A stretch of DNA of 64,000 nt. Source: Actinomycetota bacterium. GTDB taxonomy: Bacteria > Actinomycetota > CADDZG01 > JAHWKV01. The stretch lies in the NCBI GenBank assembly GCA_019347715.1, contig JAHWKU010000010.1, positions 10,805-74,804 on the forward strand. The letters are read 5' to 3'. A model generated the notes under the pieces. It saw only the letters and a list, made by a program, of their open reading frames with translations, was not told the origin of the DNA and made no database searches. The position numbers were made by a program, and so were the translations under genes. How positions within the stretch are numbered: position 1 is the first letter of the stretch; each line of letters begins with the position of its first letter. Shown in pieces: positions 12,568-43,462 of this stretch.

Positions 12568-12570
12568 GGC

Positions 12571-14055: not shown

Positions 14056-14108
14056 CTTTTTTGTTCGCGAATGCGAACACTTTTGCACTCGGCGGCGCGA
14101 ACAAAAAA
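14056..14108 (+). repeat. hairpin repeat family B copy 1 (13-bp perfect stem TTTTTTGTTCGCG / CGCGAACAAAAAA, 26-nt loop)
   Basis: Between cofE and the DUF559 gene. The loop contains GAATGCGAAC, which can alternatively pair with GTTCGC. Confidence 0.8.
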
Positions 14109-14141
14109 ATGCGAGGGGCCATCCCCCTCAATTCGCAGATC

Positions 14142-15077: not shown

Positions 15078-15144
15078 GCCTCATATCAAAGCGGGACCCT
15101 GTGACAAAAGTCGACGTTTTCGCGACCCGGGGAGGCCTTGGCAT

Positions 15145-29889: not shown

Positions 29890-30606
29890 ATGGGACAGGC
29901 ACGATGTGTGTGCATCATTCCTGCCAGGGGAGGTTCCAAAGGAATCCGGCGAAAGAATCTCGTACCACTACTCGGCGTTCCACTGATTAGTCGGATCGTA
30001 AGAGTGGCTCAAGCCGCTCATTCAATTGAGCAAGTCGTAGTGTCGACAGATGACACCGAGATAGCCTCAGAAGCTGAGAGGTCAGGTGCCCATGTTTTAT
30101 TGCGTCCTTTAGAACTGAGTACTGACGAAGCGAGTTCTGAATCCGTGGTTCTGCACGCGCTCGACCAATTAGAGCGTGAAAATGAATACCTACCAGAATT
30201 GACTGCTTTCGTGCAATGTACGACTCCTCTAACTAAGTCTGAGGACATTGACGGAACCATAAAGATCCTTCTGGATGAGCAGGCGGACTCAGCTTTTACG
30301 GTAAGTCCCTTTTCTGGATTCGTTTGGCGCCAGTCCGAAATGGGCCGATGGATAGGTATGAACCATAGGGTGACAGTCCGTCAACGAAGACAGGACCGCG
30401 AGCCGGAATTCTTAGAAACAGGCGGAGTGTATGTATTCAAGACTAAGGGCTTCCGGCAGCATAAGCATCGCTTCTTCGGAACTATCGCGGCCTATGTCGT
30501 TGAACCCTCTCAAGCCTTAGAGATAGACGACTCCTGGCAACTTGTCCCAGCAGAGGCACTACTTAGATGGCGTGAGCGCGAAGAAGGGCAGCCTAGAGAC
30601 GGTTAA
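29890..30606 (+). CDS. acylneuraminate cytidylyltransferase family (CMP-nonulosonic acid synthetase, NeuA/PseF/LegF-like)
   Basis: 238 aa. CVCIIPARGGSKGIRRKNLVPLLGVPLI is the hallmark CTP_transf_3 N-terminus. Confidence 0.85.
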   Translation: MGQARCVCIIPARGGSKGIRRKNLVPLLGVPLISRIVRVAQAAHSIEQVVVSTDDTEIASEAERSGAHVLLRPLELSTDEASSESVVLHALDQLERENEYLPELTAFVQCTTPLTKSEDIDGTIKILLDEQADSAFTVSPFSGFVWRQSEMGRWIGMNHRVTVRQRRQDREPEFLETGGVYVFKTKGFRQHKHRFFGTIAAYVVEPSQALEIDDSWQLVPAEALLRWREREEGQPRDG

Positions 30607-30850: not shown

Positions 30851-33097
30851 ATGATCATCGAGTCGAATATCTCCAAGTACATCGTCTTCGCCGAGGACGG
30901 TATTGCTCATGCCCTCCGCAAGATGACTCTCAACAGATCTCGCACCGTCTTTTGCGTAGGAGAACATGGAACTCTAGAAGGTGTCCTTACGGACGGAGAT
31001 TTCAGGCGATGGATCGTCGAGGAACCTGAAATTGATCTGGATCAACCCGTGTCTCGGATTGTGAATCGAGAGTTTCGCTCAGCATCAGTGCGAGCCTCCC
31101 CGGACGAGATAAGGGATCTCTTCGATGACGGGGTCACTCTCATACCTCTTACAGATGATCGTAATCGGATAGTCAGCATTGCTTTACGCGCGGCGCGAGC
31201 CATTGAGCTCGGAGACTTTACAATCGGTTCTGACGCTCCCGCATTTGTTATTGCGGAGATTGGAATCAATCACAACGGAAGCATCGAACTCGCTAGGCGA
31301 CTAGTTGACGAGGCGGTCCTCGCCGGAGCCGATTGTGTCAAATTCCAGATGCGTTATTTGCCATCCCTTTATCGCAATTCGGGAGACCCCAATGATCTTC
31401 GAGAGGATCTCGGATCGCAGTACATTCTCGATATTCTCAGCAGATTCTCTCTAAGCAATGATGAGCTTTTTGAAACTTTTGATTACGCGCGTGCCCAAGG
31501 CGTACTGCCGCTCTGCACGCCATGGGACGAACAGAGCGTCTTGGCTTTGGAAAACTATGGTATCGATGGGTACAAGATAGCGTCTGCCGATCTCACTAAT
31601 CACGATCTTCTTCGATTCGTTGCGGCTACCAGGAAACCCATGCTGGTCTCCACTGGAATGTCCACCGAGAACGAGATCAAACAAAGCGTCTCGTTGCTGA
31701 GGGATAATGGAGTAGCCTTCGTTTTACTTCATTGCAACTCCACATATCCCGCTCCTCTGAGAGATATTCATCTGAGCTTCCTGGACGGCCTTGCCGAAAT
31801 CGGGGACTGTCCAGTGGGGTACTCAGGCCATGAGCGAGGAATCGCTGTTCCGGTGGCCGCGGTGGCGCTGGGTGCCCGAGTGATCGAAAAGCATTTCACC
31901 CTCGATAAGACTATGGAAGGTAACGACCATAAGGTCAGTCTTTTGCCCCACGAATTTCGAACGATGGTTGACTCCATTCGGCAAGTCGAAGCCGCGCTAT
32001 CAAAGCAAGGCGAAAGACGGCCCAGTCAGGGCGAGTTCATTAACCGCGAGAATCTTGCCAAAAGTCTTATGGCTACCCGGCAGATAGAAGCAGGAGAGAC
32101 GATTACTGACGAAATGCTCATCTCAAGGAGTCCTGGCCGTGGACTTCAGCCGAACTATCGAAAAGCTCTAGTTGGACGCCCTGCACGTCGCTCGATTAAG
32201 CCGGGAGACTTTTTTTACGGCAGTGACCTCGACGATGTTGGAGTGAAGCCCAGAGCCTATAGATTCAGACGTCCTTGGGGACTGCCCGTTCGGTATCACG
32301 ACTTTCAAAATCTCTTGGGTCAGTCAAACATGGATTTTCTAGAATTCCACCTTAGCTACAAAGACATGGAGCAAGAACCTTCGCGCTTTTTCGATCGGCC
32401 TCTAGACCTGGGTATCACCGTCCACAGCCCTGACCTTTTCTCCGGAGACCACCTCATTGACCTGGCAGCGCGCGATGAAGGCTACCGTCTTCGTTCAGTT
32501 CGAGAACTCCAACGGGTCGTGAACACCACGCGTGAACTGTCCGCCTTTTTCTCCAGGTCGTCCAAGCCACTGATCATTGCGAGTTTGGGCGGATTTACGA
32601 AGGAACATCCCCTCGCCGAAGAGGAGCGTCCCGAGCTTTACGAAATGGTGGCTACAAGTCTGGATGCGCTGGACAAGGACGGGGTCGAAATAGTGCCCCA
32701 GACGGTTCCTCCGTTTCCTTGGTACCTAGGTGGGCAACTCCATTGCAACATCTTCGTTGACCCAGTCGATACGGCGACCTTTTGTGAAACGTACGGTTAC
32801 CGAATTTGCCTCGATCTCTCACACTCGAAACTTGCGACCAACTGCCGGAATGCCTCGTTCAAAGAGTTCGTGGAAGCAGTAGGTCCGTACGTAGCCCATA
32901 TCCATGTTTCCGATGCAGAAGGACTTGATGGCGAGGGCCTCCAGATCGGTATGGGCGAAATCGATTTTGCAGTGGTAGCTGAACAACTCGATGTCCTTGC
33001 TCCGAGTGCAGGGTTCATTCCGGAGGTTTGGCAAGGACATAAGAATGACGGCGAGGGATTCTGGGTTGCGCTCGATCGATTGGAGCGTTGGTTCTAG
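30851..33097 (+). CDS. tri-domain fusion: CBS pair + NeuB-family nonulosonic acid synthase (with SAF domain) + sugar-phosphate isomerase/epimerase-like TIM barrel
   Basis: 748 aa. Residues 1-115 form a CBS-pair-like region (IVFAEDGIAHALRKMTLNRSRTVFCVGEHGTLEGVLTDGDFRRWIV). Residues about 120-470 are NeuB-like (AFVIAEIGINHNGSIELARRLVDEAVLAGADCVKFQ...; SAF-like ITDEMLISRSPGRGLQP). Residues about 480-748 resemble xylose-isomerase-like TIM barrels (HSPDLFSGDHL..., AHIHVSDAEGLDGEG). Confidence 0.75.
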   Translation: MIIESNISKYIVFAEDGIAHALRKMTLNRSRTVFCVGEHGTLEGVLTDGDFRRWIVEEPEIDLDQPVSRIVNREFRSASVRASPDEIRDLFDDGVTLIPLTDDRNRIVSIALRAARAIELGDFTIGSDAPAFVIAEIGINHNGSIELARRLVDEAVLAGADCVKFQMRYLPSLYRNSGDPNDLREDLGSQYILDILSRFSLSNDELFETFDYARAQGVLPLCTPWDEQSVLALENYGIDGYKIASADLTNHDLLRFVAATRKPMLVSTGMSTENEIKQSVSLLRDNGVAFVLLHCNSTYPAPLRDIHLSFLDGLAEIGDCPVGYSGHERGIAVPVAAVALGARVIEKHFTLDKTMEGNDHKVSLLPHEFRTMVDSIRQVEAALSKQGERRPSQGEFINRENLAKSLMATRQIEAGETITDEMLISRSPGRGLQPNYRKALVGRPARRSIKPGDFFYGSDLDDVGVKPRAYRFRRPWGLPVRYHDFQNLLGQSNMDFLEFHLSYKDMEQEPSRFFDRPLDLGITVHSPDLFSGDHLIDLAARDEGYRLRSVRELQRVVNTTRELSAFFSRSSKPLIIASLGGFTKEHPLAEEERPELYEMVATSLDALDKDGVEIVPQTVPPFPWYLGGQLHCNIFVDPVDTATFCETYGYRICLDLSHSKLATNCRNASFKEFVEAVGPYVAHIHVSDAEGLDGEGLQIGMGEIDFAVVAEQLDVLAPSAGFIPEVWQGHKNDGEGFWVALDRLERWF

Positions 33098-33643: not shown

Positions 33644-34777
33644 CTAGATCCGTCTGTGGAACTCGATGAACTCGCCGTTTCCACTATCTGTAGTGAAGCC
33701 ATTCGTCTCAAAGCAACGTCGGGAAGGAAGATTATCGCGGTGAACCTCGGCCTCGAAAAGAGTCACCTGATGATCCTCTTTAAGTTCAGCGACTAGGGCA
33801 GAAATTATTTGTGTCCCATAACCCTTACTTCTCTCCACTTTTTCGACAGAGAATGAGATACGTCCGACCCCAGCTACTACATCGATCCTCACCTGACCTA
33901 TGGGCAAGTCACCAACCATGCCGATCCATATTCTGGTGGCTGGATTCTCCAGTGCTCGCCCGAACCACTCGTGGTGATCTGCAGGATTCACAGCCCGGCC
34001 GGATCGGCTGGTCCTTACGGTCGTGGGGTCATTCCTCATGGCTAGAAGAAATTCTTCGTCAGTAAGTATCGCTGGTCTGAGCCTCAAAGTGTCTTTGGGT
34101 TGATGCCTGATTCCTACTCGTTGGAGGATTTCCAACCAAGTCATTTCAGGGCTGCAACCGAGTCCTTCAACATATTTGCGGATGCGAGCTAAGTCTTCGG
34201 GTGTGTCGATAACCCATCGTTCCTTTCCCAAGAGGTGGCTCGTTCGGAGGTTACGAAGAGTGAAGACTTCAGGGTGACGATATATGTAGGGAGTAACATG
34301 CTCACGTTCCGCAGCCTCTTTAGCCTGGCGATCTGCTTCTCGGAGAGTTGACGCTCTCAGAACTTCAACGTCGAGACCCTTGGGATAAGTTCGAACAAGT
34401 GAGTTGGAGAGATAATCGGCTCCGGATGAGTCAAATCGCTCCACCGCCTCATTTATCAAGCCAGGATCGATGAAGGGACAGTCCCCTGTAACGCGCACTA
34501 CGGTTTCCGCAGGAAAAGCATCCAATACTTCGAGAAATCGATGAAGGACATCCATGCTGTCCCCTCTGACCGCGGGTACGCCGAGACGCTCTGCTTCTTG
34601 CTCGATGGGATCGTCTTCCTTCTCGGAGGAAGTAGCGACCATCACCTTAGCCTTCACTCGCTGAAGGCGCTTCAGGATGAAGGTGAGAACGGTTTCGTCG
34701 CCCAGAGGCATCAGGGTCTTGCCAGGCAGACGTCTGGAACCCATTCGGGCCTGGAGAATGCATATGGTTGCTTTCAA
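33644..34777 (-). CDS. fusion: SpsF/PseF-like cytidylyltransferase-family domain + GNAT N-acetyltransferase (PseH-like)
   Basis: 377 aa. N-terminus ICILQARMGSRRLPGKTLMPLGDETVL is CTP_transf_3/SpsF-like. The C-terminal roughly 150 aa form a GNAT fold (IWIGMVGDLPIGQVRIDVVAGVGRISFSVEKVERSKGYGTQIISALV). Last gene of the pse operon, ATGA-coupled to pseG. Confidence 0.75.
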   Translation of the reverse strand: MKATICILQARMGSRRLPGKTLMPLGDETVLTFILKRLQRVKAKVMVATSSEKEDDPIEQEAERLGVPAVRGDSMDVLHRFLEVLDAFPAETVVRVTGDCPFIDPGLINEAVERFDSSGADYLSNSLVRTYPKGLDVEVLRASTLREADRQAKEAAEREHVTPYIYRHPEVFTLRNLRTSHLLGKERWVIDTPEDLARIRKYVEGLGCSPEMTWLEILQRVGIRHQPKDTLRLRPAILTDEEFLLAMRNDPTTVRTSRSGRAVNPADHHEWFGRALENPATRIWIGMVGDLPIGQVRIDVVAGVGRISFSVEKVERSKGYGTQIISALVAELKEDHQVTLFEAEVHRDNLPSRRCFETNGFTTDSGNGEFIEFHRRI

Positions 34778-35631
34778 CCCGCTTGCGAGAGTAAAAAATC
34801 CGCCACCCTCCTAGGCCCCTTCCCATCAAAAAGACGAATCGCACGATCGCCCAATCGCCTACGAGCATCCTCGTCATCCAGGAGGGCTAGCGTATGATCG
34901 ATCGTCGCTGAAGGGGAGCTTCTGACAATGCATCCTAATCGTGCACAGTGGTCGACAGCTCGCGCCTGATTCTTATGTAGATCGAAAGCGACGGTAGGCC
35001 GGCCTAGAGTGAGCGCCTCGATCATGGTTACCCCTCCGGCGGTGATAACTAGGTCCGAGTGAGAGAGCCATTTCGCTAGACCTTGATCTGTATTGACGAT
35101 TTCCAATTTTGGGAGCAAGAAGCTTGATTCATCCCTGGTGGCTAAGAGCACCCTCAGTTCTGGGGCGCATTCGACTAACTGTCCCGCAATTGCCATACCC
35201 AAGCCGTTATCGGGACCGCCTCCGGTTGCCACCAGAACATTCTTTACATGACTTCCGATGGAGCGTCGCTTCATCAAGGCTAGTTGGGGATCGACAAGGC
35301 TAAACCCCGATCCCCGCAGGATTGAGGGGGATCCCCGAGAGACAATGGTGAGCCCTTCATCAGTTGGTGTCGGATCGACAACGACTTCCACATCAAGACT
35401 GCGTTCCAGATCATCGATCACGCAAGTAATCCTGCTAGCGGGATAGTCGCCGCGTGAGACTGGTCCATAGGTATCGAGCACGATAATCTCTGCCGCAGTT
35501 TGTGTTCCGACCTCGGCGAGATCTATCTCGACTTCCAATGAGGTGAACCCTGCACCCAAGGCCTTCATTCGACTCTGATGACCAAGTCCGGTGGTGGGTC
35601 CGGAGTCGAAGCGAAGGGAAACCCGAGTCAT
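34774..35631 (-). CDS. pseG: UDP-2,4-diacetamido-2,4,6-trideoxy-beta-L-altropyranose hydrolase-like (PseG family, GT28-like)
   Basis: 285 aa. RFDSGPTTGLGHQSRMKALGAGF is the PseG N-terminal Gly-loop. C-terminal GGVTMIEALTLGRPTVAF is typical of GT28 C-domains. ATGA overlaps on both sides. Confidence 0.7.
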   Translation of the reverse strand: MTRVSLRFDSGPTTGLGHQSRMKALGAGFTSLEVEIDLAEVGTQTAAEIIVLDTYGPVSRGDYPASRITCVIDDLERSLDVEVVVDPTPTDEGLTIVSRGSPSILRGSGFSLVDPQLALMKRRSIGSHVKNVLVATGGGPDNGLGMAIAGQLVECAPELRVLLATRDESSFLLPKLEIVNTDQGLAKWLSHSDLVITAGGVTMIEALTLGRPTVAFDLHKNQARAVDHCARLGCIVRSSPSATIDHTLALLDDEDARRRLGDRAIRLFDGKGPRRVADFLLSQAG

Positions 35632-36674
35632 ACCATCTCCCAGGTGATCACTTCGTCCTCTTCGATGTCTCGCTTTGCCCGTCGTCCAACGATGGCGTCG
35701 ATGAAGCGAGGTTTGATCCCGAAGCCTGGCCGCTTGACCGTCAACATGGTCCGGGTTATCGGTGTTCCGGCAGCGATGGTCGCTGCCGCGACGACCGAGC
35801 GCCGCGCCTTCGTATACATCTCCTTCGCCTCTTCCGTGGTAGGACCTGACTTAAGTCCGTCTCCGATGGCCGCCTCAACGTCGTGTATTTGCTGAACGAG
35901 TTCCTTCAGCTGGTGAGGCTCAATGGCGAAGGGATGATCGGGGCCAGGATGGCTTCGGTCGAGCGTGAAGTGCTTCTCGATTATGTGCGCGCCCCTCGCC
36001 GCAGCGGCTACGGGGATATGGGTTCCCAGGCTGTGATCGGAGAGACCCACCGGAACTTTGAATGCAGTCTTCAATGTGTCCATGGCGGCAAGGTTCATGA
36101 TGGAAGCTGGGGCAGGATAGAGGGAGGCACATTGGAGAAGACAAATTTCAGTTGCACCACCTTGTCTGGCTGCATCCATCGCTTCCTCGATCTCGGCGAG
36201 AGTCGCCATCCCGGTCGACAGGATTACCGGCCGAGCCTTCGAGCCAACGTATTCGATGAAAGGCAGGTCCACGATTTCGAAAGAAGCGATCTTAAAGACC
36301 GCAACGCCGAGGGCATCCAGCTCATCAACGGCTTGAAGATCGAACGGACTAGAAAGGAACTCGATGCCAGCTTGGCGTGAGTGATCGGCGAGGAGACTCT
36401 GCCACTCGCGGGGGAGCGAGATATCCTCGAGAAGTTCGTGAGGTTTCTTGGATGAGATGCCCGAAAGGTAGTCGAACTGCGGCGCCTTCGTCGAGTAAAG
36501 GGTCCTACCTGAATAAGTTTGAAACTTGATGGCATCAGCCCCGGCGTCTGCTGCCTCATCGATCAGGCGTTTACTGGTATCCAGGTCCCGGTTGTGGTTG
36601 GATCCCGCCTCCGCAATCACGTAACACGGGTGCCCCTGACCGACCGTCTTCTTCCCGAGCCGGACCGTTGTCAT
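35628..36674 (-). CDS. pseI: pseudaminic acid synthase (NeuB family)
   Basis: 348 aa. CYVIAEAGSNHNRDLDTSKRLIDEAADAGADAIKFQTY, plus the C-terminal SAF/antifreeze-like domain. Sits in a pseB-pseC context. Confidence 0.85.
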   Translation of the reverse strand: MTTVRLGKKTVGQGHPCYVIAEAGSNHNRDLDTSKRLIDEAADAGADAIKFQTYSGRTLYSTKAPQFDYLSGISSKKPHELLEDISLPREWQSLLADHSRQAGIEFLSSPFDLQAVDELDALGVAVFKIASFEIVDLPFIEYVGSKARPVILSTGMATLAEIEEAMDAARQGGATEICLLQCASLYPAPASIMNLAAMDTLKTAFKVPVGLSDHSLGTHIPVAAAARGAHIIEKHFTLDRSHPGPDHPFAIEPHQLKELVQQIHDVEAAIGDGLKSGPTTEEAKEMYTKARRSVVAAATIAAGTPITRTMLTVKRPGFGIKPRFIDAIVGRRAKRDIEEDEVITWEMV

Positions 36675-37747
36675 TTCAGGAGCGATATTAGAGCGTCCCC
36701 GACGTAACGCTGTTGTTCGTCGGTCATGTCGGGGAAAAGAGGCAGAGAAAGCAGTCGAGCGTAGGCAGCCTCCGTGTGAGGGAATCGCGAGGGATCGTTG
36801 CCCTCTCTATATAAAGGATGTCGATAGATCGGGATGTAGTGAACCTGGGCACCGATTCCCTTATTGCGGAGACCGTCGTACACCTCCCTGCGATGCGGAG
36901 CCTGTACCGGGTAAAGATGGCGTGCATGAACCCACCCCGCCTGTGCGCCCGGTGGGAGAACAAGTCCAGTTCCGGAAAGGAGATCGCGGTACTTTTCAGC
37001 TAGGTGGTTTCGTCTCGCTACGAACGAGTCCGCTCTCTTAAGCTGATTTGTCCCGAGGGCGGCCTGCAAGTCGGTGATCCGCATGTTGAACCCAGCGGTT
37101 GCCACTTCGTAAAACCAGCCGCCTTCCTCGGGTTTGCGAACGATCCCGTGGTTTCTGAATCGTCGGAGACCCTCGGCGAACTCTTCGGAGTTGGTCGTTA
37201 CCGCGCCGCCTTCACCAGTTGTAATGGTCTTTACAGGATGGAATGAGAAGACGCACATGTGTGAGTGAGCACAGTTTCCTACTGGGCCGTCGGGAGTAAT
37301 GGCACCAAGGGCATGCGCGGCATCCTCAATTATCACTCTGGGCTGGAACTGTAAACGGCTAAGGTCGAGCGGCAGGCCGGCAAAGTGGACGGCAATGAGG
37401 CCGTCGCATTCGGGCAGTGTGCCCGGGTCGAGATTAAGGGTCTTCGGATCGATGTCGGCGAAATTGACAGAGGCGCCAACGTAGCGGCCGCAGTTGGCAG
37501 AGGCTACGAAACTGAGGGGCGAGGTGATGACTGTGTCTCCGGGCCCCAGGCCCGCCACGGCCGCCGCGGCATGCAGCGCAGCGGTGCCATTTGCAAAGGC
37601 GACGGCAAACTTCGCTTGAGTATATGACGCCAGAGAGTTTTCGAATTCCTCGATGTGAGGGCCCTGAGTGAGCCACTCTCCCCGTAGAACGTTTGTTACT
37701 GCCTCGAGATCCGTCTCATCGATCGATTGATGGCTGTAAGGGATCAC
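36671..37747 (-). CDS. pseC: UDP-4-amino-4,6-dideoxy-N-acetyl-beta-L-altrosamine transaminase (DegT/DnrJ/EryC1 family)
   Basis: Track ORF 36671..37783. GTG at 37747 (VIPYSHQSIDETDLEAV..., a typical PseC N-terminus) forms a GTGA overlap with the pseB stop. PLP-aminotransferase fold. Confidence 0.85.
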   Translation of the reverse strand: MIPYSHQSIDETDLEAVTNVLRGEWLTQGPHIEEFENSLASYTQAKFAVAFANGTAALHAAAAVAGLGPGDTVITSPLSFVASANCGRYVGASVNFADIDPKTLNLDPGTLPECDGLIAVHFAGLPLDLSRLQFQPRVIIEDAAHALGAITPDGPVGNCAHSHMCVFSFHPVKTITTGEGGAVTTNSEEFAEGLRRFRNHGIVRKPEEGGWFYEVATAGFNMRITDLQAALGTNQLKRADSFVARRNHLAEKYRDLLSGTGLVLPPGAQAGWVHARHLYPVQAPHRREVYDGLRNKGIGAQVHYIPIYRHPLYREGNDPSRFPHTEAAYARLLSLPLFPDMTDEQQRYVGDALISLLK

Positions 37748-38718
37748 GGAAGAAGTTCTCGTAGCTCCTCTACGCCGAGCCACTGATCGTTATTATCGCT
37801 CGTATACGAGAACGTGTCCTCGAGAGGGCGGCTATCTGGCCACTTCTTGCCCCGTGCCCACCAAGGATGTTGTGGAAGTATCACGAACTTGTCTCCGATA
37901 TCGAGGGTATGACGAGACTCATCCGGAGTAAGAAGCATTTCATGGAGCTTCTCCCCGGGCCGTATCCCCGTGACCTTACGGGGCACTCCTGGGGCTATGG
38001 CCTCGGCGAGGTCTGTGACTCTGATGGATGGAATCTTTGGGACGAATATTTCTCCGCCATGCATTTCCTTGAACGCCTCAATGACGAGTTCCACGCCTTG
38101 TTTGAGGGTGATCCAAAACCGGGTCATTCGCTCGTCCGTTAGAGTGAGCAGACCTTCCCGTGACTGTCTCAAGAACAGGGGCACCACACTTCCTCGCGAA
38201 CCCACTACGTTTCCGTACCTTACGCAACTCATTCGGGTCTCAGAAGTTGACGCGTAGGCGTTTCCCTGGACCAAGATCTTTTCAGCGCAGAGCTTAGTGG
38301 CTCCGTATAGATTGACGGGGTTTACAGCCTTGTCGGTGGAGATGGCGACCACTCTTGGCACCCCCACATCGATTGCAGCTTCCGCGACGTGTTGTGCCCC
38401 CATGACGTTGGTCTGAATGGCCTCGAAAGGGTTGTACTCGCAGGCTGGAACTTGCTTCATCGCTGCCGCATGAACGATCAGGTCTACACCCTCTGCCGCC
38501 CTTTTGAGACGATACCTGTCCCGTACATCCCCCACTAGATAACGTACTCGTTGATCTCCATAGACTTCGCGTACCTCGGATTGCTTGAACTCATCACGAC
38601 TAAAAATCCGAATTACGGAATCTTCCGAGTGACTTAAACCGTAATCAATGAAGGCGCGTCCGAATGACCCGGTACCTCCGGTGAGAAGGATTGTCTTTTG
38701 ATCTAGGACACTAGCCAT
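37744..38718 (-). CDS. pseB: UDP-N-acetylglucosamine 4,6-dehydratase (inverting), FlaA1/CapD family
   Basis: 324 aa. KTILLTGGTGSFGRAF...VRYLVGDVRD...YGATKLCAEK, typical of PseB. Confidence 0.85.
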   Translation of the reverse strand: MASVLDQKTILLTGGTGSFGRAFIDYGLSHSEDSVIRIFSRDEFKQSEVREVYGDQRVRYLVGDVRDRYRLKRAAEGVDLIVHAAAMKQVPACEYNPFEAIQTNVMGAQHVAEAAIDVGVPRVVAISTDKAVNPVNLYGATKLCAEKILVQGNAYASTSETRMSCVRYGNVVGSRGSVVPLFLRQSREGLLTLTDERMTRFWITLKQGVELVIEAFKEMHGGEIFVPKIPSIRVTDLAEAIAPGVPRKVTGIRPGEKLHEMLLTPDESRHTLDIGDKFVILPQHPWWARGKKWPDSRPLEDTFSYTSDNNDQWLGVEELRELLP

Positions 38719-38831: not shown

Positions 38832-39551
38832 ATGAGGGCTTTTCGTGAGGTAGCAAAACGAGCGTTGGCTAAAGTCGTCTCCAAGGCCAGGGATGTTGCT
38901 AACGAGCAGAGCCCTGTTGCTCCTCAGCTCGCACTTCCTCCCTTAGATCTAACCAACGCTAGTCGACTGCTATACCACAAGCGGCTCTTTGACCTCATCA
39001 CCAATGTCGAGGGAGACATTGTCGAGTGTGGCGTCGGAATCGGCACGACACTACTCATGTGGGCCTCATTGATTCTCGACGAAGGAGGTAGCCGCCGACT
39101 TTGGGGATTTGATTCGTTCCAGGGCTTTCCGGAACCGGCTCCTGAGGACGAAAGCCCGCGTCAGTGGAAGAAGGGAGAGTGGGCCTACGCCACCGCGAAG
39201 GATATTCAAGACCTATTGATTGCTGCCAGATGCAGTGCGGAGTGGGTACGGGCCAAAGTGACTCTAGTCCCCGGATACCTCGAAGAGACACTCCCGGGAT
39301 ATACGGGCGACCGCATTGCCTTGCTGCATTTAGATGTGGACCTCTACGAATCTTATGCCGTATGTCTAAAAACGCTTTATCAATCGGTTATGCCCCGAGG
39401 CATCATTTGTTTCGACGAGTACAGAGGCACTTTTGAGGCCCTCAGTGCTCCTGGAGCTTCCCAGGCAATCGATGAATTCCTTCGTGACCAGGGTCTGTCC
39501 ATTCAACGGGACCCATCCTTCGGCAAGTATTACGTTGTAAAGCCCGCCTGA
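38832..39551 (+). CDS. TylF/MycF-family SAM-dependent O-methyltransferase
   Basis: 239 aa. IVECGVGIGTT (SAM site), WGFDSFQGFPE and LLHLDVDLYESY (metal-binding Asp cluster) are characteristic of macrocin-O-methyltransferase-like sugar O-MTs. Confidence 0.8.
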   Translation: MRAFREVAKRALAKVVSKARDVANEQSPVAPQLALPPLDLTNASRLLYHKRLFDLITNVEGDIVECGVGIGTTLLMWASLILDEGGSRRLWGFDSFQGFPEPAPEDESPRQWKKGEWAYATAKDIQDLLIAARCSAEWVRAKVTLVPGYLEETLPGYTGDRIALLHLDVDLYESYAVCLKTLYQSVMPRGIICFDEYRGTFEALSAPGASQAIDEFLRDQGLSIQRDPSFGKYYVVKPA

Positions 39552-39779: not shown

Positions 39780-41237
39780 ATGCCGAAGAGAGTGGCACTA
39801 GTCGTGGACAATCCTAACCGGGATCTGCCCGGCCTTGTCTTGCTGGGACGGTATCTATGCTCTCAGGACTTGACTTGTTACCTGGTTCCAATGAATCTCC
39901 AAAATCTCGAACTGTTGGCCTTGGCCCCTGATTTCGTGGTATTCAATTATCTGCGTAGCAATAATGAGGATCATGTAAGGCGCTTACACCGCGCGAATAT
40001 CTCCTATGGATGCCTTGACACAGAGGGGGGGGTAGTCTCAAAGGAGATATTCCAAGCAGTTGCTCCCAAGAGCCGCGATGTGTTGGCTGATGCATCCTTC
40101 TATGCCGCTTGGGGCCCAGCCAGTGCAGATATGGTGCAGAAGGCGGGGCTGTACTCCTCGGACCAAGTGGCCATAACTGGAAACCCTCGTTTTGACTTTT
40201 ACGTAGACCCTTGGAAGAAACCAGCGCTGGAAACATCCGATTATGCGGAATTCTTCCAAGGGAAGTCCATCCTCTTTAATGGAACGTTCCCTCTTGCAAA
40301 TCCTGGCTTCAGTACGCCTACTCGAGAAGTCGAGATGTACGTTCGGCAATTCGGGATGGATCGAGAATTGATCGAATCAACTCAGCAGCAGCAGGCTGCC
40401 GTGCTGGGGAAGTTTTCCTCACTGGCTCAAGAAGTAGCTACCCACATCCCAGAAGCGAAGGTTGTATATCGGCCCCATCCGTTCGAGCGACTTGAGACTT
40501 ACACGGATAAATTCAGGGCTCCAAATTTGAGAGCCGCGCTGCAAGGAACAGTCGATGGGTGGATATTGAGAGCTGATGCGCTCGTCCACTTCAATTGCTC
40601 TACCGCGATCGAGGCCGGGATGGCGGGAGTCCCCGCTTTCATTCCTACGTGGCTGACGGATCTGGTTCAATCGTCGTTACTGCGACCCATCCCGGAAATT
40701 GAAAATGTAAGCGTTGGTTGCGATTCACCAAGAGACTTGAAGGCAGTACTGCGGGAGGCATTAGAGCAAGACTTTGAAATTCCAGCGAGGGTAGGTGCTG
40801 CTATGGAGAGGATTGTGGCTGACTGGTACTTCGCTCTCGACGGATCCTCTCACGAGCGCGTCGGAAGTCTCATCCTTGAACACGCCGAGTCGACCAAAGG
40901 AGCTGACCGAGCTCAATGCTCTCGGCTGATTAGGAGTATTGGCAATGCAAGAGGGATCAAGGGCAGAACTGCGCGTTTCGCTCGAACGGTCCTGGGGGCG
41001 GAGCTCTACTCAACTCTTCGGAAGCGGTTACCAGGAGGATCTATTGGCGCCTGGGAACTCTCCGGCAAACACTTTTCCGTCCAAGACGTGCGAAAGATAT
41101 TGACGGCGATTGACCCGTCTCAAGGTGTCTCTGCGGAAAGCGCACAGGTTCGGGGGGAGTATAGCGAACCCTTGATCTCTGGCTCTTCGATTACCCTTTT
41201 TCCTTCGCACGATCGAGCAACATTAGGTCGAACGTGA
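39780..41237 (+). CDS. GT-B superfamily transferase, TagF/KpsS-like (paralog A); candidate polyol-phosphate or nonulosonic-acid transferase
   Basis: 485 aa. Motif ITGNPRFDFYVD and C-terminal ...HFNCSTAIEAGMAGVPAFI resemble the GYPRxD and SS..FD.....KPII blocks of CDP-glycerol glycerophosphotransferase/capsule-synthesis families. Paralogous to 43676..45178. Confidence 0.5.
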   Translation: MPKRVALVVDNPNRDLPGLVLLGRYLCSQDLTCYLVPMNLQNLELLALAPDFVVFNYLRSNNEDHVRRLHRANISYGCLDTEGGVVSKEIFQAVAPKSRDVLADASFYAAWGPASADMVQKAGLYSSDQVAITGNPRFDFYVDPWKKPALETSDYAEFFQGKSILFNGTFPLANPGFSTPTREVEMYVRQFGMDRELIESTQQQQAAVLGKFSSLAQEVATHIPEAKVVYRPHPFERLETYTDKFRAPNLRAALQGTVDGWILRADALVHFNCSTAIEAGMAGVPAFIPTWLTDLVQSSLLRPIPEIENVSVGCDSPRDLKAVLREALEQDFEIPARVGAAMERIVADWYFALDGSSHERVGSLILEHAESTKGADRAQCSRLIRSIGNARGIKGRTARFARTVLGAELYSTLRKRLPGGSIGAWELSGKHFSVQDVRKILTAIDPSQGVSAESAQVRGEYSEPLISGSSITLFPSHDRATLGRT

Positions 41238-41282
41238 TGATTGCTGAGGAGCCATGGCTTTTGGAGGTTGGAAGGTAGTTCG

Positions 41283-42137
41283 ATGAAACAGTCTTCCCCA
41301 GAGGGCGTGATCTATACGCCGGAGTCACAACTGCGGTCGCCAGGCCGATTGATCGGAACGATGGGCCGGGATCTCATTGCTTCGCGGGAGTTGGCGTGGC
41401 GGCTAGTTGTCCGCGATTTGCGGGCCAGATATCGCCAGACGGCATTTGGATTTCTCTGGGCATTCCTGCCTGTCCTTACCGCGCTTGTATTCCAGTTGCT
41501 GAACCAATCTCAAGTCTTTGAGGTACGAGACACGCGAATTCCGTATCCGCTGTTTGTGATGTTTGGAACCATTCTCTGGCAGACCTTCGTTGACAGCCTC
41601 AACGCACCGATCCGAGCGTTGACAAAAAACAAGTCCATGCTCGCGAAGGTCAACTTTCCCCGCGAAGCTCTGATTCTTGGGGCCGTGGGGGAGGTTCTAT
41701 TTGATCTTGGGATTCGAGCAGTGCTGCTGGTGGGTTTCACGGTCTGGTATGGCGTGGAACCCCAGCTCGGGATGGTTCTTGCACCATTCGCCGCTCTGCT
41801 TCTTGTTCTGCTTGGAATGATGATCGGTCTTTTCCTTGCCCCATTCGCGCTTCTCTATGAAGATGTCACCCTGGCTCTTCCGCCAATCATGACGGTGTGG
41901 ATGTTCTTAACGCCCGTCGTCTTTCCTGTTCCTGCCAGTGGACTACTCAGTCGAGTCATGCATTTGAACCCCGCCACGTCGATTCTTGCAGGCGTCCGAG
42001 ATCTTGCTACCACCGGTGGCATGCCTGGCCTCTCATCTTTCCTTGTGGTGTCTGGGACGACATTTGTAGCTTTGATGGGGGTCTGGGTGATCTACAGACT
42101 TTCCATTCCTATTCTCATTGAACGGATAACCGCATGA
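41283..42137 (+). CDS. wzm: ABC-2 type polysaccharide exporter permease (Wzm/KpsM/TagG family)
   Basis: Track ORF 41241..42137. ATG at 41283 with GGAGG/GGAAGG upstream. 6 TM helices. RARYRQTAFGFLWAFLPVLTAL matches the ABC-2 signature region. Confidence 0.85.
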   Translation: MKQSSPEGVIYTPESQLRSPGRLIGTMGRDLIASRELAWRLVVRDLRARYRQTAFGFLWAFLPVLTALVFQLLNQSQVFEVRDTRIPYPLFVMFGTILWQTFVDSLNAPIRALTKNKSMLAKVNFPREALILGAVGEVLFDLGIRAVLLVGFTVWYGVEPQLGMVLAPFAALLLVLLGMMIGLFLAPFALLYEDVTLALPPIMTVWMFLTPVVFPVPASGLLSRVMHLNPATSILAGVRDLATTGGMPGLSSFLVVSGTTFVALMGVWVIYRLSIPILIERITA

Positions 42138-43462
42138 GCGACCCTGTTATCCGAGTAGAGGGCTTGTCCAAGAAGTTCTGCAATCGTCTCCGCCGCGCCC
42201 TATGGTACGGCGTCAAGGACCTAGGCTCCGAGCTCTTGCTTCGCCGAAGGCCCCGGGACCAACTGAGGCGTGACGAGTTTTGGGCCTTGAAAGATGTTTC
42301 GTTCGAAGTATCTCCTCAGGAAACCTTTGGGCTTATTGGACACAACGGAGCAGGGAAGAGCACCCTTCTTAAACTCATGAATGGATTAATTCGGCCCGAT
42401 ACGGGTTCAATCATGGTTCGAGGGCGGGTGGGGGCGTTAATTGAGTTGGGATTGGGGTTCAACCCGGTTCTGACAGGGCGCGAGAACATTCAAGTGAATG
42501 CGGCAGTCCTCGGCTTCAAGAAATCAGATATAAAACGGAAAATGCAACAAATCATCGACTTCGCTGAGATTGGGGACTTCATCGATGCCCCAGTTCAAAG
42601 CTTTAGCTCGGGGATGAAGGTCCGACTGGGGTTCGCGATTGCCGCTCATCTAGACCCTGATGTCCTTCTCGTTGACGAAATACTAAGTGTGGGGGATTCA
42701 TCTTTTCGGGATCGCTGCGTCAGCCGGCTGAACAACTTTAAGGAAGAGGGTGGCACGATAGTTTTCGTCTCCCATAATTCGCTCGCTGTTGAAGCTATCT
42801 GTGATCGAGTACTCCTGCTGGATCACGGACAGGTAGTTGAGGTTGGAGACCCGAGTGCCGTGGTTGAGAGATATGAGACGGATTCCAGGCAGAAGTCTTT
42901 CATCGCCGGGCAGTCGCTTCGATTAAGTCCCCAGCCTTCCAGTGATGAAAGTGTGATTGAAATCGTTTCGTGCGAACTGCAAGACAGCGAAGCCCAACTA
43001 CGAAATGAGTTCAACATCGGCGAGACCATCGAGATTCGGCTGTCCTATCATGCAAGAGAGGAAATTAAGCGCCCCTATTTCGATGTAGCGTTATACCGCG
43101 ACAATTGGCCTGCAGATCCCATCAGTTACATGAGCACTCTGGAGGAAGGATTTGAGATCGAATCCGTCTTGGGATCTGGTTCCTTCAGCTGCCTGATCCA
43201 TAAACCAAACCTTGCTCCCGGCCCTTACCACTTGTCGGCAGGCGTAAGGAGGACCACCACCACCCAACTGGGGTCAAAGTGGTATGCCCCTCTGCGTCCG
43301 GTCGCGAAATTCAACGTCTCATCTTCCGATCTGCGTAACCGGATGAAGGGCCGAAGAGCAGCTAGTCTGACTAGGGCAGCACCTCTTCTTCTGGATCATC
43401 GTTGGTCATGGAATGATCGGGTCATGGCTGTTGGCGACTATGTGCCTGAGCACGACCATTAG
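42134..43462 (+). CDS. wzt: ABC polysaccharide exporter ATP-binding protein (Wzt/TagH/KpsT family) with C-terminal carbohydrate-binding domain
   Basis: 442 aa. Walker A GHNGAGKST, signature LSSGMKVRLGFA, Walker B LLVDE. About 190-aa beta-rich C-terminal extension as in O-antigen-terminus-binding Wzt proteins. ATGA coupling with wzm. Confidence 0.85.
   Translation: MSDPVIRVEGLSKKFCNRLRRALWYGVKDLGSELLLRRRPRDQLRRDEFWALKDVSFEVSPQETFGLIGHNGAGKSTLLKLMNGLIRPDTGSIMVRGRVGALIELGLGFNPVLTGRENIQVNAAVLGFKKSDIKRKMQQIIDFAEIGDFIDAPVQSFSSGMKVRLGFAIAAHLDPDVLLVDEILSVGDSSFRDRCVSRLNNFKEEGGTIVFVSHNSLAVEAICDRVLLLDHGQVVEVGDPSAVVERYETDSRQKSFIAGQSLRLSPQPSSDESVIEIVSCELQDSEAQLRNEFNIGETIEIRLSYHAREEIKRPYFDVALYRDNWPADPISYMSTLEEGFEIESVLGSGSFSCLIHKPNLAPGPYHLSAGVRRTTTTQLGSKWYAPLRPVAKFNVSSSDLRNRMKGRRAASLTRAAPLLLDHRWSWNDRVMAVGDYVPEHDH

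What the first reader, a model, noticed from the sequence alone, without database searches (positions are those of the whole stretch)
30851..33097. Unusual tri-domain enzyme: CBS pair + NeuB-like nonulosonic acid synthase + xylose-isomerase-like TIM barrel
NeuB/PseI/LegI synthases are normally about 340 aa (TIM barrel + SAF domain). This 748-aa protein puts a CBS-pair-like sensor domain at the N-terminus. It also carries a C-terminal sugar-phosphate isomerase/epimerase-type TIM barrel of about 270 aa, with metal-ligand-like His/Asp/Glu patterns.

It co-occurs with a canonical pseI in the same island. This implies either a second, modified nonulosonic acid or a coupled synthase plus sugar rearrangement step that is not part of the textbook Pse or Leg pathways.
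Basis: partly seen in the sequence, partly recalled or inferred. Interest (0 to 1): 0.68.

Follow-up and report, generated by a model that had tools for sequence, protein, structure and literature searches.

The report
Fused Kdn-type sugar-acid synthase
This is a real 748-residue enzyme that joins a regulatory module, a sialic-acid-type synthase and a metal-dependent barrel; it is common in bacteria but unstudied, and probably makes a Kdn-like sugar acid for a cell-surface polysaccharide.

Summary
Positions 30851-33097 (+) hold one uninterrupted 748-aa ORF with a CBS pair, NeuB, SAF and a xylose-isomerase-like TIM barrel.

It is not rare. An identical protein is already deposited from an actinobacterial MAG. 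At least 585 species genomes from many phyla encode homologues at a uniform 54-64% identity. I found no paper or curated model that describes it.

The only tightly linked gene is a cytidylyltransferase, present in 48 of 75 loci and directly upstream in this window. It carries the arginine that makes CMP-sialate synthetases specific for Kdn. The NeuB domain keeps all catalytic residues. It has the S-G-H motif of synthases that use sugar 6-phosphates, where free-sugar enzymes have S-D-H, and it lacks their SAF arginine.

No Neu, Pse or Leg precursor genes and no HAD phosphatase travel with the gene.

Best reading: a self-contained, allosterically controlled Kdn-type synthase running PEP + mannose-6-P to Kdn-9-P to Kdn to CMP-Kdn. 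It is independent of the neighbouring Pse pathway and feeds a polysaccharide exported by an ABC transporter.

The barrel's role is inferred, not shown. Most likely it removes the 9-phosphate. The main rival is a sugar-phosphate isomerase. It lacks the first catalytic Glu of ketose 3-epimerases.

The parts
30851..33097 (+). Whole gene: the 748-aa CBS pair - NeuB - SAF - TIM barrel fusion protein
   Evidence: Single ORF. Four Pfam domains. 100% identical to a deposited MAG protein, with hundreds of full-length homologues.
30851..31195 (+). CBS pair (Bateman module), residues 1-115. Predicted nucleotide-sensing regulatory domain with one canonical ligand site (G44-V-L-T-D-G-D50...R53-W54).
   Evidence: Pfam CBS 24.6 bits. 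Weak similarity to the CBS pair of KpsF/GutQ arabinose-5-P isomerases. AF2 shows two beta-alpha-beta-beta-alpha units, pLDDT 80-93. The motif is invariant across homologues.
31202..32026 (+). NeuB-type PEP-condensing TIM barrel, residues about 118-392, with the S325-G326-H327 motif
   Evidence: Pfam NeuB 271.5 bits. All N. meningitidis NeuB catalytic, metal and PEP residues are conserved. S-G-H is shared with 9-phosphate synthases.
32057..32236 (+). SAF (antifreeze-like) domain, residues about 403-462. The Arg314 equivalent is Ser427.
   Evidence: Pfam SAF 35.2 bits. Alignments to 1xuu and 8h2c. The family motif is [KR]-S-P-G.
32246..33094 (+). Xylose-isomerase-fold TIM barrel, residues 466-748. 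Invariant core: R481, D484, E498, H500, D505, H525, Q/E617, D655, H658, H685, D688, E695, E725, H730.
   Evidence: Pfam AP_endonuc_2 58.9 bits. AF2 pLDDT 86.6. Foldseek best hit is MJ1311, 3wqo. Conservation measured over 101 representatives. This subfamily is almost always fused to NeuB.
29890..30606 (+). Partner cytidylyltransferase (238 aa), predicted CMP-Kdn-type synthetase
   Evidence: CTP_transf_3. PseF model scores 134 bits against a cut-off of 206. The same family is present in 48 of 75 loci and sits directly upstream in about 33. Arg lies at the PpNeuA Arg196 gate-keeper column here and in 38 of 48 family members.
38832..39551 (+). TylF-type O-methyltransferase; candidate modifier of the sugar or of the glycan terminus
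   Evidence: Pfam TylF. Homologues lie next to the fusion gene in 11 of 75 loci.
39780..41237 (+). TIGR04396 'surface carbohydrate biosynthesis protein' (BFO_1060-like); candidate transferase for the ulosonic acid
   Evidence: NCBIfam 245.8 bits against a cut-off of 125. Homologues (cluster C16) occur near the fusion in 5 other loci, at +1 or +2 in three of them.
41241..43462 (+). Wzm/Wzt ABC exporter. Wzt carries a C-terminal carbohydrate-binding domain.
   Evidence: ABC2_membrane; ABC_tran + Wzt_C. Wzt or Wzm is near the fusion gene in 34 of 75 loci.

Best explanation
The gene encodes the committed enzyme of a compact, horizontally mobile two-gene route to an activated deaminated nonulosonic acid of the Kdn type. 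The route runs beside the neighbouring pseudaminic-acid pathway and does not depend on it.

Proposed steps:
1. The NeuB/SAF core condenses PEP with a hexose 6-phosphate, most simply mannose-6-P, to give the 9-phosphate of the sugar acid. This is inferred from motifs.
2. The C-terminal metal-dependent TIM barrel carries out the adjacent step that the pathway otherwise lacks. Most likely it hydrolyses the 9-phosphate to release free Kdn. This is inference, and it is the weakest link.
3. The cytidylyltransferase encoded immediately upstream makes the CMP-sugar. This is inferred from its family and its gate-keeper arginine.
4. The N-terminal CBS pair binds a nucleotide, plausibly the CMP-sugar end product or an adenine or cytidine nucleotide, and tunes flux. 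This is inferred from the motif only.
5. A sialyltransferase-like or TIGR04396-type enzyme then adds the sugar, possibly O-methylated, to a glycan. The glycan leaves through the Wzm/Wzt ABC transporter, perhaps carrying the sugar as the terminal cap that the Wzt carbohydrate-binding domain reads. This is inferred from gene context.
For: The gene is real, intact and constrained:
- One ORF with four domains.
- 78% mean column identity among 30 homologues.
- Conserved as a unit across phyla.

The synthase is competent. E136, K164, Q166, K242, S245, S267, Y299, S325, H327, E346, H348 and D359 match the N. meningitidis NeuB catalytic, metal and PEP residues.

A sugar-phosphate substrate is indicated:
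- S-G-H next to the metal His occurs in 120/120 fusion proteins, 119/120 vertebrate Neu5Ac-9-P synthases and 119/120 relatives of the strictly Man-6-P-dependent P. parvum Kdn-9-P synthase.
- NmNeuB, CjPseI, BsSpsE, the window's own PseI and three other stand-alone paralogues all have S-D-H (enzymology from PMC6200933).
- The SAF arginine (Nm R314) kept by free-sugar enzymes is Ser here.

A Kdn-type product is indicated:
- The partner cytidylyltransferase has Arg at the PpNeuA Arg196 position in 38 of 48 loci, including this window.
- That Arg is the experimentally shown Kdn-versus-Neu5Ac gate-keeper. It is present in bacteria that make only Kdn, and it is Leu or Ile in Neu5Ac and Pse enzymes (PMC12934254).

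The route is self-contained:
- The only strongly linked gene is the cytidylyltransferase (48/75 loci).
- No NeuC, aminotransferase or dehydratase set is consistently present.
- No BT1713/KdsC-type HAD phosphatase occurs in any of about 85 loci.
- In Ensifer canadensis a mannose-6-P isomerase/GDP-Man pyrophosphorylase gene directly precedes the pair.

The barrel looks like a metal enzyme rather than a sugar isomerase:
- This TIM subfamily is almost always fused to NeuB (43 of 62 sampled representatives).
- It has a histidine-rich invariant core.
- Position 617 is Gln or Glu interchangeably, which is the behaviour of a metal ligand and not of a general base.
- Its nearest solved structure is MJ1311. 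From my memory of Uechi et al. 2014, that protein keeps the nine trinuclear-zinc residues of the phosphoesterase endonuclease IV.

Export context: Wzm/Wzt (with Wzt_C), methyltransferases, and MptE-like, polysialyltransferase-like or TIGR04396 genes sit around the pair.
Against: - Nothing here is biochemical. The S-G-H and Arg-gate arguments are correlations.
- By overall similarity the NeuB domain is no closer to 9-phosphate synthases (30-34% identity) than to PseI (36-37%).
- I know of no xylose-isomerase-fold protein shown to be a sugar-phosphate monoesterase.
- The match to the endonuclease IV metal site could be aligned confidently only for the D655/H658, H685 and E725 equivalents. hhalign probabilities were under 10%.
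- Foldseek ranks ketose 3-epimerases, not phosphoesterases, directly after MJ1311.
- Housekeeping phosphatases can finish such pathways (noted in PMC6200933). Absence of a linked phosphatase therefore does not force the barrel into that role.
- Ten of the 48 partner cytidylyltransferases lack the Arg.
- In some genomes (Rippkaea PCC 8801, Crocosphaera WH8501) the gene sits alone with no glycan genes nearby.
Confidence: 0.5

Rival explanations
1. The barrel is a sugar-phosphate isomerase or epimerase acting before the synthase. It would convert a central ketose or aldose phosphate (Fru-6-P or Glc-6-P to Man-6-P, or to an unusual hexose-6-P) into the aldose-6-P that the NeuB domain condenses. 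This would be a fused analogue of KdsD plus KdsA, and an unlinked general phosphatase would then remove the phosphate.
For: - Pfam family and Foldseek neighbours are sugar isomerases and epimerases: L-ribulose 3-epimerase, UlaE, D-allulose 3-epimerases.
- The CBS pair most resembles that of the KpsF/GutQ arabinose-5-P isomerases of the Kdo pathway.
- The Kdn pathway literature says phosphatases are functionally redundant.
Against: - The first catalytic Glu of the two-base epimerase mechanism is Gln in two thirds of the family and swaps freely with Glu.
- Hosts generally already make Man-6-P. In Ensifer a dedicated PMI gene sits right beside the pair, which would make a second Man-6-P-forming activity redundant there.
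- The invariant histidine-rich core exceeds the E-D-H-E set of the sugar epimerases.
Confidence: 0.2
2. The barrel acts on the finished sugar acid or its 9-phosphate as a dehydratase, hydratase or epimerase. The pathway would then yield a modified or stereochemically new ulosonic acid rather than Kdn itself.
For: - The fold family includes dehydratases and hydratases that act next to a keto group. AtHYD (8ro4) appears among the Foldseek hits; IolE and AsbF I recall from memory.
- The tight, exclusive fusion to NeuB fits a step specific to this sugar.
- O-methyltransferases nearby show that the sugar or the glycan is further decorated.
Against: - The partner cytidylyltransferase looks like an ordinary Kdn-type enzyme (Arg gate, and the conserved Tyr and Gln of the sialate pocket).
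- No reductase or other follow-up enzyme is consistently linked.
- A 3-deoxy-2-keto acid lacks the 3-OH that the ketose 3-epimerase chemistry uses (chemical reasoning).
Confidence: 0.12
3. One reading: the enzyme belongs to, or modifies, the adjacent Pse/Leg-type pathway and condenses a 2,4-diacetamido-2,4,6-trideoxyhexose or a related 6-deoxy-HexNAc.
For: - It lies 0.5 kb from a complete Pse cluster in this window.
- PseI is among its best PDB sequence matches, 8h2c at 36% identity.
Against: - The Pse cluster has its own synthase and its own cytidylyltransferase.
- In most genomes the fusion occurs without PseB- or PseC-type genes: DegT in 12 of 75 loci.
- It has S-G-H, not S-D-H, and lacks the SAF Arg that PseI keeps.
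- The partner has Arg where PseF has Ile.
Confidence: 0.05
4. The fusion is an artefact (frameshift, misassembly or read-through of two genes), or the extra domains are decaying remnants.
For: None found.
Against: - The same single ORF appears in 69 of 78 loci from independent assemblies, including finished genomes.
- Every domain is under strong constraint, with dozens of invariant residues.
Confidence: 0.01

Closest known systems
Bacterial NeuB/PseI/LegI nonulosonic acid synthases (N. meningitidis NeuB, PDB 1xuu; C. jejuni PseI, PDB 8h2c)
   Same: The NeuB TIM barrel plus SAF domain is shared. All metal, PEP and catalytic residues are conserved. Identity is 30-37%.
   Different: - About 340 aa with no CBS pair and no second barrel.
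- S-D-H instead of S-G-H.
- They keep the SAF Arg (R314), which is Ser427 here.
- They use free N-acylated sugars.
- The target scores below the NeuB_NnaB and PseI equivalog cut-offs: 312 against 400 bits and 242 against 340 bits.
Kdn-9-phosphate / Neu5Ac-9-phosphate synthases with a separate HAD phosphatase (P. parvum Kdn-9-P synthase; B. thetaiotaomicron BT1714 + BT1713; vertebrate NANS + NANP)
   Same: - The S-G-H motif.
- No Arg at the SAF position in vertebrate NANS.
- The same predicted pathway logic: hexose-6-P + PEP to 9-phosphate, then free sugar, then CMP-sugar (PMC6200933).
- The partner CMP-synthetase has the Kdn gate-keeper Arg.
   Different: - Only 30-34% identity.
- Those systems use a separate HAD-family phosphatase. 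None is linked here. A xylose-isomerase-fold barrel is fused instead.
- They have no CBS pair.
MJ1311 of Methanocaldococcus jannaschii (PDB 3wqo, 'D-tagatose 3-epimerase-like protein')
   Same: It is the best structural and sequence match of the C-terminal domain: Foldseek E 1e-10, TM about 0.65; profile E 1e-7 over beta6-beta7. The D-x-x-H and H-x-H-x-x-D motifs are shared.
   Different: - 18-19% identity, stand-alone, function unknown.
- From memory of the structure paper, it keeps all nine endonuclease IV zinc ligands. The target has Gln at the E145 position and D-G-E-G where MJ1311 has D-D-E-H.
Ketose 3-epimerases (D-tagatose, D-allulose and L-ribulose 3-epimerases; UlaE)
   Same: The fold is shared, as are the D, H and E ligands on strands beta6, beta7 and beta8.
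   Different: - 11-16% identity.
- The first catalytic and metal-binding Glu (UlaE E155) is Gln617 here.
- Additional invariant residues are present: H500, H525, H658, E695, H730 and R481.
KpsF/GutQ/KdsD arabinose-5-phosphate isomerases (SIS domain + CBS pair) of the Kdo pathway
   Same: A CBS pair is attached to an enzyme of ulosonic-acid biosynthesis. These are the nearest non-family matches of the target's N-terminal module.
   Different: The matches are weak (E 5e-4 to 9e-3). The catalytic domain there is SIS, not NeuB or a TIM barrel.

Membership tests
NeuB-family PEP-dependent ulosonic acid synthases (PF03102 + SAF) | NeuB domain and SAF domain detected above curated thresholds | tested here: met
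   NeuB 271.5 bits (cut-off 22.1); SAF 35.2 bits (cut-off 21).
NeuB-family PEP-dependent ulosonic acid synthases (PF03102 + SAF) | Two metal-binding His, the PEP-binding Lys and Ser residues, and the catalytic Glu and Asp (Nm E25, K53, Q55, K129, S132, S154, Y186, S213, H215, E234, H236, D247) | tested here: met
   All are conserved: E136, K164, Q166, K242, S245, S267, Y299, S325, H327, E346, H348, D359. They are invariant in the family.
Free-sugar NeuB/PseI/LegI equivalogs | Score above the NCBIfam equivalog cut-offs; the S-D-H motif; the SAF-domain Arg (Nm R314) | tested here: not met
   NeuB_NnaB 311.8 bits against 399.65; PseI 242.3 bits against 340.25. The motif is S-G-H, and Ser427 stands in place of the Arg.
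Hexose-6-phosphate-dependent (9-phosphate) sialate synthases | The S-G-H motif next to the metal His, used here as an empirical signature | tested here: met
   120/120 fusion proteins, 119/120 vertebrate Neu5Ac-9-P synthases and 119/120 algal Kdn-9-P synthase relatives have it. Seven free-sugar or stand-alone enzymes have S-D-H.
Hexose-6-phosphate-dependent (9-phosphate) sialate synthases | Catalytic use of Man-6-P or ManNAc-6-P and not of the free sugar | not testable with these tools
   This needs an enzyme assay.
Xylose-isomerase-like TIM barrels (PF01261) | Family HMM above threshold and the (beta/alpha)8 fold | tested here: met
   58.9 bits against 31.1. The AF2 model shows eight strand/helix units. 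There are 169 PDB matches with E <= 1e-3, and those listed are overwhelmingly of this fold.
Ketose 3-epimerases (DTE/DAE/UlaE) | An E-D-H-E metal tetrad in which the two Glu act as the opposing catalytic bases | tested here: not met
   The first Glu (UlaE E155) aligns with Gln617. The family has Q in 68 and E in 33 of 101 representatives. The D655, H685 and E725 equivalents are present.
Endonuclease IV-type trinuclear-zinc phosphoesterases | Nine zinc ligands (E. coli H69, H109, E145, D179, H182, H216, D229, H231, E261) | tested here: inconclusive
CBS pair (Bateman module) | Two tandem CBS motifs, with a G-h-h-T/S-x-x-D ribose-phosphate site | tested here: met
   Pfam finds one motif, just above threshold. 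AF2 shows two beta-alpha-beta-beta-alpha units. G44-V-L-T-D-G-D50 is invariant in CBS1 and absent from CBS2. Ligand identity cannot be tested here.
CMP-Kdn synthetases (for the upstream gene 29890-30606) | CTP_transf_3 fold with Arg at the PpNeuA Arg196 gate-keeper position | tested here: met
   CTP_transf_3 85.5 bits. Arg at the aligned column in the window protein and in 38 of 48 family members. The criterion comes from PMC12934254.
HAD-type Kdn-9-P / Kdo-8-P phosphatases (BT1713, KdsC) as pathway partner | A homologue encoded near the synthase | tested here: not met
   blastp and tblastn with BT1713 found no hit at E <= 1e-3 in any of about 85 loci (+-9 kb) or in the 22.5 kb of this window searched, positions 21001-43500.

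The most novel reading that the evidence does not exclude
The C-terminal barrel founds a new functional class within the xylose-isomerase/endonuclease IV fold: a small-molecule sugar-acid 9-phosphate phosphatase. It would have replaced the HAD phosphatase of the classical route. The protein would then be a one-polypeptide, CBS-regulated Kdn synthase that works in any host from Man-6-P and PEP. Alternatively the barrel changes the sugar, so that hundreds of bacterial species display a still undescribed ulosonic acid.
Probability: 0.45. Interest if true: 0.7.

Novelty: new variant of a known kind. Interest (0 to 1): 0.55.

Why it matters
Kdn and related sugar acids are found widely in environmental bacteria, cyanobacteria and actinobacterial cell walls. 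The genes behind them are mostly unassigned outside Bacteroides, algae and animals.

This fusion and its partner cytidylyltransferase form a compact module present in at least 585 species. It would account for much of that distribution and give a simple genomic marker for Kdn-type glycans.

If the barrel is the missing phosphatase, three things follow. It adds a new chemistry to a well-studied fold. It explains why no phosphatase gene is found in these loci. It also offers a single enzyme for making Kdn, and with the partner CMP-Kdn, from cheap central metabolites for glyco-engineering.

The CBS pair would be a rare case of direct allosteric control in bacterial sialic-acid-type biosynthesis.

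Tried and rejected
- Frame error or two genes: rejected.
- Rare or unique architecture: rejected.
- Literature. Searches covered NeuB with xylose isomerase-like and CBS; nonulosonic acid with cyanobacteria and NeuB; sialic acid synthase with CBS domain and TIM barrel; Wzt with terminal nonulosonic and O-methyl; MJ1311; and teichulosonic acid with Kdn and SCO4879-4881. None found a description of this fusion. The large NeuB phylogeny paper does not mention it.
- Profile alignments of the barrel to E. coli endonuclease IV and UlaE gave hhalign probabilities under 10% and only partial coverage. I used them only for the strands that agree between methods.
- My recalled human NANS sequence was not an exact database entry. 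I replaced it with genuine vertebrate entries.
- A search with the P. parvum Kdn-9-P synthase returned only algal relatives, so it gave no bacterial context.
- The Streptomyces 'plasmid' hit is a plain 355-aa NeuB/SAF gene. Its neighbours are an aminotransferase, an FMN dehydrogenase and a glyoxalase-type gene rather than glycan genes, so it is not informative.
- I could not determine whether S. coelicolor SCO4881, in the operon I recall from memory as linked to the Kdn-containing teichulosonic acid, is a fusion member.
- Promoter and terminator scans around the gene were at background level.
- The window has no Rfam or tRNA features.
- The full-length AF2 model has pTM 0.48, so I drew no conclusion about domain packing or substrate channelling.


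Full report
**1. The observation**

The window holds one uninterrupted ORF at 30851..33097 on the + strand. It is 748 aa long and starts with ATG.

Pfam finds four domains:
- CBS, residues 11-56, 24.6 bits, just above the cut-off of 24.
- NeuB, residues 151-385, 271.5 bits.
- SAF, residues 405-460, 35.2 bits.
- AP_endonuc_2, the xylose-isomerase-like TIM barrel, residues 496-730, 58.9 bits against a cut-off of 31.1.

NCBIfam places the middle part nearest to NeuB_NnaB (311.8 bits) and PseI (242.3 bits). Both scores are well below the equivalog cut-offs. The only other hits are weak ones from the N-terminus to KpsF/GutQ.

An AlphaFold2 model of the whole protein (pLDDT 80.1) shows residues 1-115 as two beta-alpha-beta-beta-alpha units. 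That is a complete CBS (Bateman) pair. The pTM of 0.48 means the mutual arrangement of the domains is undefined.

**2. It is not an artefact, and it is not rare**

A protein 100% identical to this one is already deposited as 'MAG: N-acetylneuraminate synthase family protein [Actinobacteria bacterium]'. The next 119 database clusters are all about 748 aa long and cover 100% of the query at 57-62% identity. The named entries are almost all cyanobacterial.

I searched 1.84 billion cluster representatives with the C-terminal domain alone. This returned 824 relatives. Their lengths cluster near 750 aa (CBS + NeuB + SAF + TIM), near 620 aa (no CBS) and near 280 aa (stand-alone). Of 62 sampled, all have AP_endonuc_2, 43 have NeuB and 15 have a Pfam-detectable CBS.

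In a collection with one genome per species, at least 585 genomes encode a relative. They include Cyanobacteria, Actinomycetota, Chloroflexota, Bacteroidota, Fibrobacteria, Leptospirales, Alpha-, Beta- and Gammaproteobacteria, Bacillota, Verrucomicrobiota and Peregrinibacteria. The best 80 loci all fall at 54-64% identity.

In 69 of 78 loci all three modules lie in one ORF. Most of the rest are cut by contig ends. The three modules are conserved in parallel. Mean column identity among 30 homologues is 78%.

None of my literature searches found a description of the fusion. No curated NCBIfam model covers it.

**3. Neighbourhood in the window**

- Directly upstream on the same strand lies a 238-aa CTP_transf_3 cytidylyltransferase (29890..30606).
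- Downstream, on the opposite strand, lies a Pse cluster. It comprises a PseF-like/PseH-like fusion, a weak PseG, a 348-aa NeuB/SAF gene, PseC and PseB. PseB passes its equivalog cut-off.
- Beyond that come a TylF O-methyltransferase, a TIGR04396 'surface carbohydrate biosynthesis protein', Wzm, Wzt with a Wzt_C domain, several glycosyltransferases and a Wzy_C protein.
- GC content falls from about 0.62 to 0.51-0.55 across this glycan region.

The Pse pathway is therefore complete on its own, with its own synthase and its own cytidylyltransferase.

**4. What travels with the gene elsewhere**

I clustered 896 neighbouring ORFs from 75 non-redundant loci (+-8 kb). One partner dominates: the cytidylyltransferase family, present in 48 of 75 loci. 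It sits directly upstream in about 33 of them and is almost always on the same strand (48 of 50 members).

Other neighbours, by number of loci out of 75:

| Neighbour | Loci |
|---|---|
| Wzt | 32 |
| GT2 glycosyltransferase | 25 |
| 326-aa SAM methyltransferase | 24 |
| NAD-dependent epimerase/dehydratase | 23 |
| GT4 glycosyltransferase | 21 |
| Wzm | 18 |
| DegT aminotransferase | 12 |
| TylF methyltransferase | 11 |

Three kinds of candidate transferase follow the gene: MptE-like (11 loci), alpha-2,8-polysialyltransferase-like (7 loci) or TIGR04396-type (5 loci).

No NeuC-type, kinase or phosphatase family emerged among the 22 most widespread neighbour clusters (each present in at least 5 of 75 loci). 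A direct search with the B. thetaiotaomicron Kdn-9-P phosphatase found nothing in any locus.

In cultured Ensifer canadensis the gene order is mannose-6-P isomerase/GDP-mannose pyrophosphorylase, then cytidylyltransferase, then the fusion, then glycosyltransferases. In Rippkaea PCC 8801 and Crocosphaera WH8501 the gene stands alone.

**5. The synthase domain**

I aligned it to N. meningitidis NeuB. Every residue I know from the NeuB structural literature (recalled from memory) to bind the metal or PEP, or to act in catalysis, is conserved. Two differences define the family:
- The motif beside the first metal histidine is S-G-H, where NeuB has S-D-H.
- The SAF-domain arginine (Nm R314) is serine, in the family motif [KR]-S-P-G.

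I then tested whether these differences track substrate type.
- The P. parvum Kdn-9-P synthase accepts only Man-6-P and none of Man, ManNAc, ManNAc-6-P or Ara-5-P (PMC6200933; sequence from its supplement; confirmed as a real P. parvum protein). It has S-G-H.
- S-G-H is present in 119 of 120 of its algal relatives, in 119 of 120 vertebrate Neu5Ac-9-phosphate synthases and in 120 of 120 fusion proteins.
- S-D-H and the Arg are present in NmNeuB, CjPseI, the window's own PseI and three further stand-alone NeuB paralogues in the loci I hold. BsSpsE also has S-D-H, but its solved chain aligned only as far as residue 297, short of the SAF motif.

This is a correlation, not a mechanism. It is clean, though, and it points to a hexose-6-phosphate substrate.

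**6. The partner cytidylyltransferase**

A 2026 structure-function study showed that Arg196 of the Kdn-specific P. parvum CMP-Kdn synthetase is the gate-keeper for Kdn. The R196L mutant switches preference to Neu5Ac. Bacteria that make only Kdn (Klebsiella ozaenae, Brevibacterium, Streptomyces albus) have Arg there. Neu5Ac-specific enzymes have Leu, and PseF has Ile (PMC12934254).

I aligned that enzyme with the 48 partner proteins. Arg occupies this column in 38 of them, including the window's protein (QHKH-R-FFG against KHKC-R-LGE). The pocket Tyr is conserved in 41 of 48 and the Gln in 39 of 48.

The activated sugar is therefore predicted to carry a 5-hydroxyl group. That makes it Kdn or a close stereoisomer, not a 5-acetamido sugar.

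**7. The C-terminal barrel**

Modelled alone it is confident (pLDDT 86.6, pTM 0.89). Foldseek against the PDB gives this order:
- MJ1311 (3wqo), E 1e-10, TM about 0.65, 18-19% identity.
- L-ribulose 3-epimerase, UlaE and the D-allulose and D-tagatose 3-epimerases, at 11-16% identity.
- MbnB, a hydratase and an endonuclease IV homologue further down.

By sequence profile only MJ1311 is significant.

Over 101 representatives, down to 28% identity, the invariant core is R481, D484, E498, H500, D505, H525, D655, H658, H685, D688, E695, E725 and H730. Position 617 is Gln in 68 and Glu in 33. This position aligns with UlaE Glu155, the first metal-binding catalytic base of ketose 3-epimerases, and lies at or next to endonuclease IV Glu145.

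A residue that swaps freely between Gln and Glu behaves as a metal ligand and not as a general base. The classical two-glutamate epimerase mechanism therefore does not define this family.

D655/H658, H685 and E725 match the endonuclease IV residues D179/H182, H216 and E261. H500 and H525 sit on strands 2 and 3, where endonuclease IV has H69 and H109. I could not align those strands reliably.

From memory (Uechi et al. 2014, not retrievable here), MJ1311 keeps all nine endonuclease IV zinc ligands.

The data therefore show a metal enzyme with a histidine-rich site that may hold more than one metal. Its reaction is not established.

**8. Synthesis**

*Shown:*
- A real, intact, widely conserved three-module protein.
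- A competent PEP-condensing core.
- An obligate genomic partnership with a cytidylyltransferase.
- Independence from Pse, Leg and Neu precursor genes.
- Frequent placement in ABC-transporter polysaccharide loci.

*Inferred with moderate support:*
- The substrate is a hexose 6-phosphate.
- The product is Kdn-type.

*Inferred with weak support:*
- The barrel is the missing 9-phosphate phosphatase.
- The CBS pair senses a nucleotide. It has one canonical G-h-h-T-D-G-D site, in CBS1 only. This could provide feedback control.
- The sugar serves as a chain-terminating cap read by the Wzt carbohydrate-binding domain. This is by analogy with the beta-Kdo terminator of Klebsiella O12, which I recall from memory.

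The phosphatase reading makes the two-gene module self-sufficient in any host, using only Man-6-P, PEP and CTP. That fits its spread across phyla at near-constant identity, and it fits the absence of any linked phosphatase.

The main rival is a sugar-phosphate isomerase or epimerase acting upstream, with a housekeeping phosphatase finishing the job. A third possibility is a modifying step that would make the product a new sugar.

**9. Comparison and novelty**

The protein works like a NeuB-family synthase and meets that family's defining features. It fails the equivalog tests for free-sugar NeuB and PseI, and it carries the signature of the 9-phosphate synthases.

The barrel belongs to the xylose-isomerase fold family. 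It fails the defining catalytic feature of ketose 3-epimerases. The test against endonuclease IV is inconclusive.

The architecture itself is already in public databases under generic names. What is new is the functional reading. I rate it a new, uncharacterised variant of a known kind, of moderate interest.

Actinobacterial cell walls are known to contain Kdn polymers that are often methylated (PMC11481543). This suits the window's actinobacterial origin and its TylF gene. I could not link the fusion to the Streptomyces SCO4879-4881 operon.

Noticed in passing
33644-34777 (-): One 377-aa ORF joins a CTP_transf_3 cytidylyltransferase to a GNAT acetyltransferase with weak PseH similarity. It looks like a PseF-PseH fusion within the Pse cluster.
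   Followed up: partly
34774-38718 (-): This is a Pse cluster. PseB passes its equivalog cut-off (467 bits against 408). PseC (417 against 423.5) and the 348-aa synthase fall just short. The synthase scores higher on the NeuB_NnaB model (372 bits) than on the PseI model (323 bits). PseG is very weak (48 bits) and short at 285 aa.
   Followed up: partly
39780-41237 (+) and 43676-45178 (+): Two paralogous TIGR04396/BFO_1060-like proteins are present, the first well above cut-off and the second weak. They may be the transferases for the two different ulosonic acids (Pse and the Kdn-type sugar). Homologues of the first occur near the fusion gene in five other loci, at +1 or +2 in three of them.
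   Followed up: partly
about 28000-50000: GC content drops from about 0.62 to 0.51-0.55 across the glycan locus. The nearest relatives of the fusion gene are cyanobacterial. Together these suggest horizontal acquisition of the island by the actinobacterial host.
   Followed up: no
22743-25211 (+) and 21202-22095 (-): An 822-aa protein with apolipoprotein-like amphipathic helical repeats (below the Pfam threshold) lies beside a DUF5667 protein. Neither has an obvious link to the glycan locus.
   Followed up: no
whole window 1-64000: No tRNA gene and no Rfam family reach threshold anywhere in the 64 kb.
   Followed up: yes
TIM-domain family (representatives P0121-P0270); window residue Gln617 at 32699-32701: The beta5 metal-ligand position is Gln-Thr in the CBS-containing clade. 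It is mostly Glu-Asn in stand-alone members and in some of the CBS-less ones (68 Q against 33 E). Glu is probably ancestral.
   Followed up: partly
L090 (Ensifer canadensis pT173e) 6756-15115: A cultured rhizobium carries the module on a 1.9-Mb replicon. The gene order is ManC/PMI, then cytidylyltransferase, then the fusion, then GT4, an unknown ORF and GT2. This strain is a practical one for experiments.
   Followed up: partly
L001 (Rippkaea PCC 8801) and L005 (Crocosphaera WH8501): In these two cyanobacteria the fusion gene is an orphan with no cytidylyltransferase or glycan genes within 10 kb. The partner must be encoded elsewhere, or the free sugar acid has another use.
   Followed up: no
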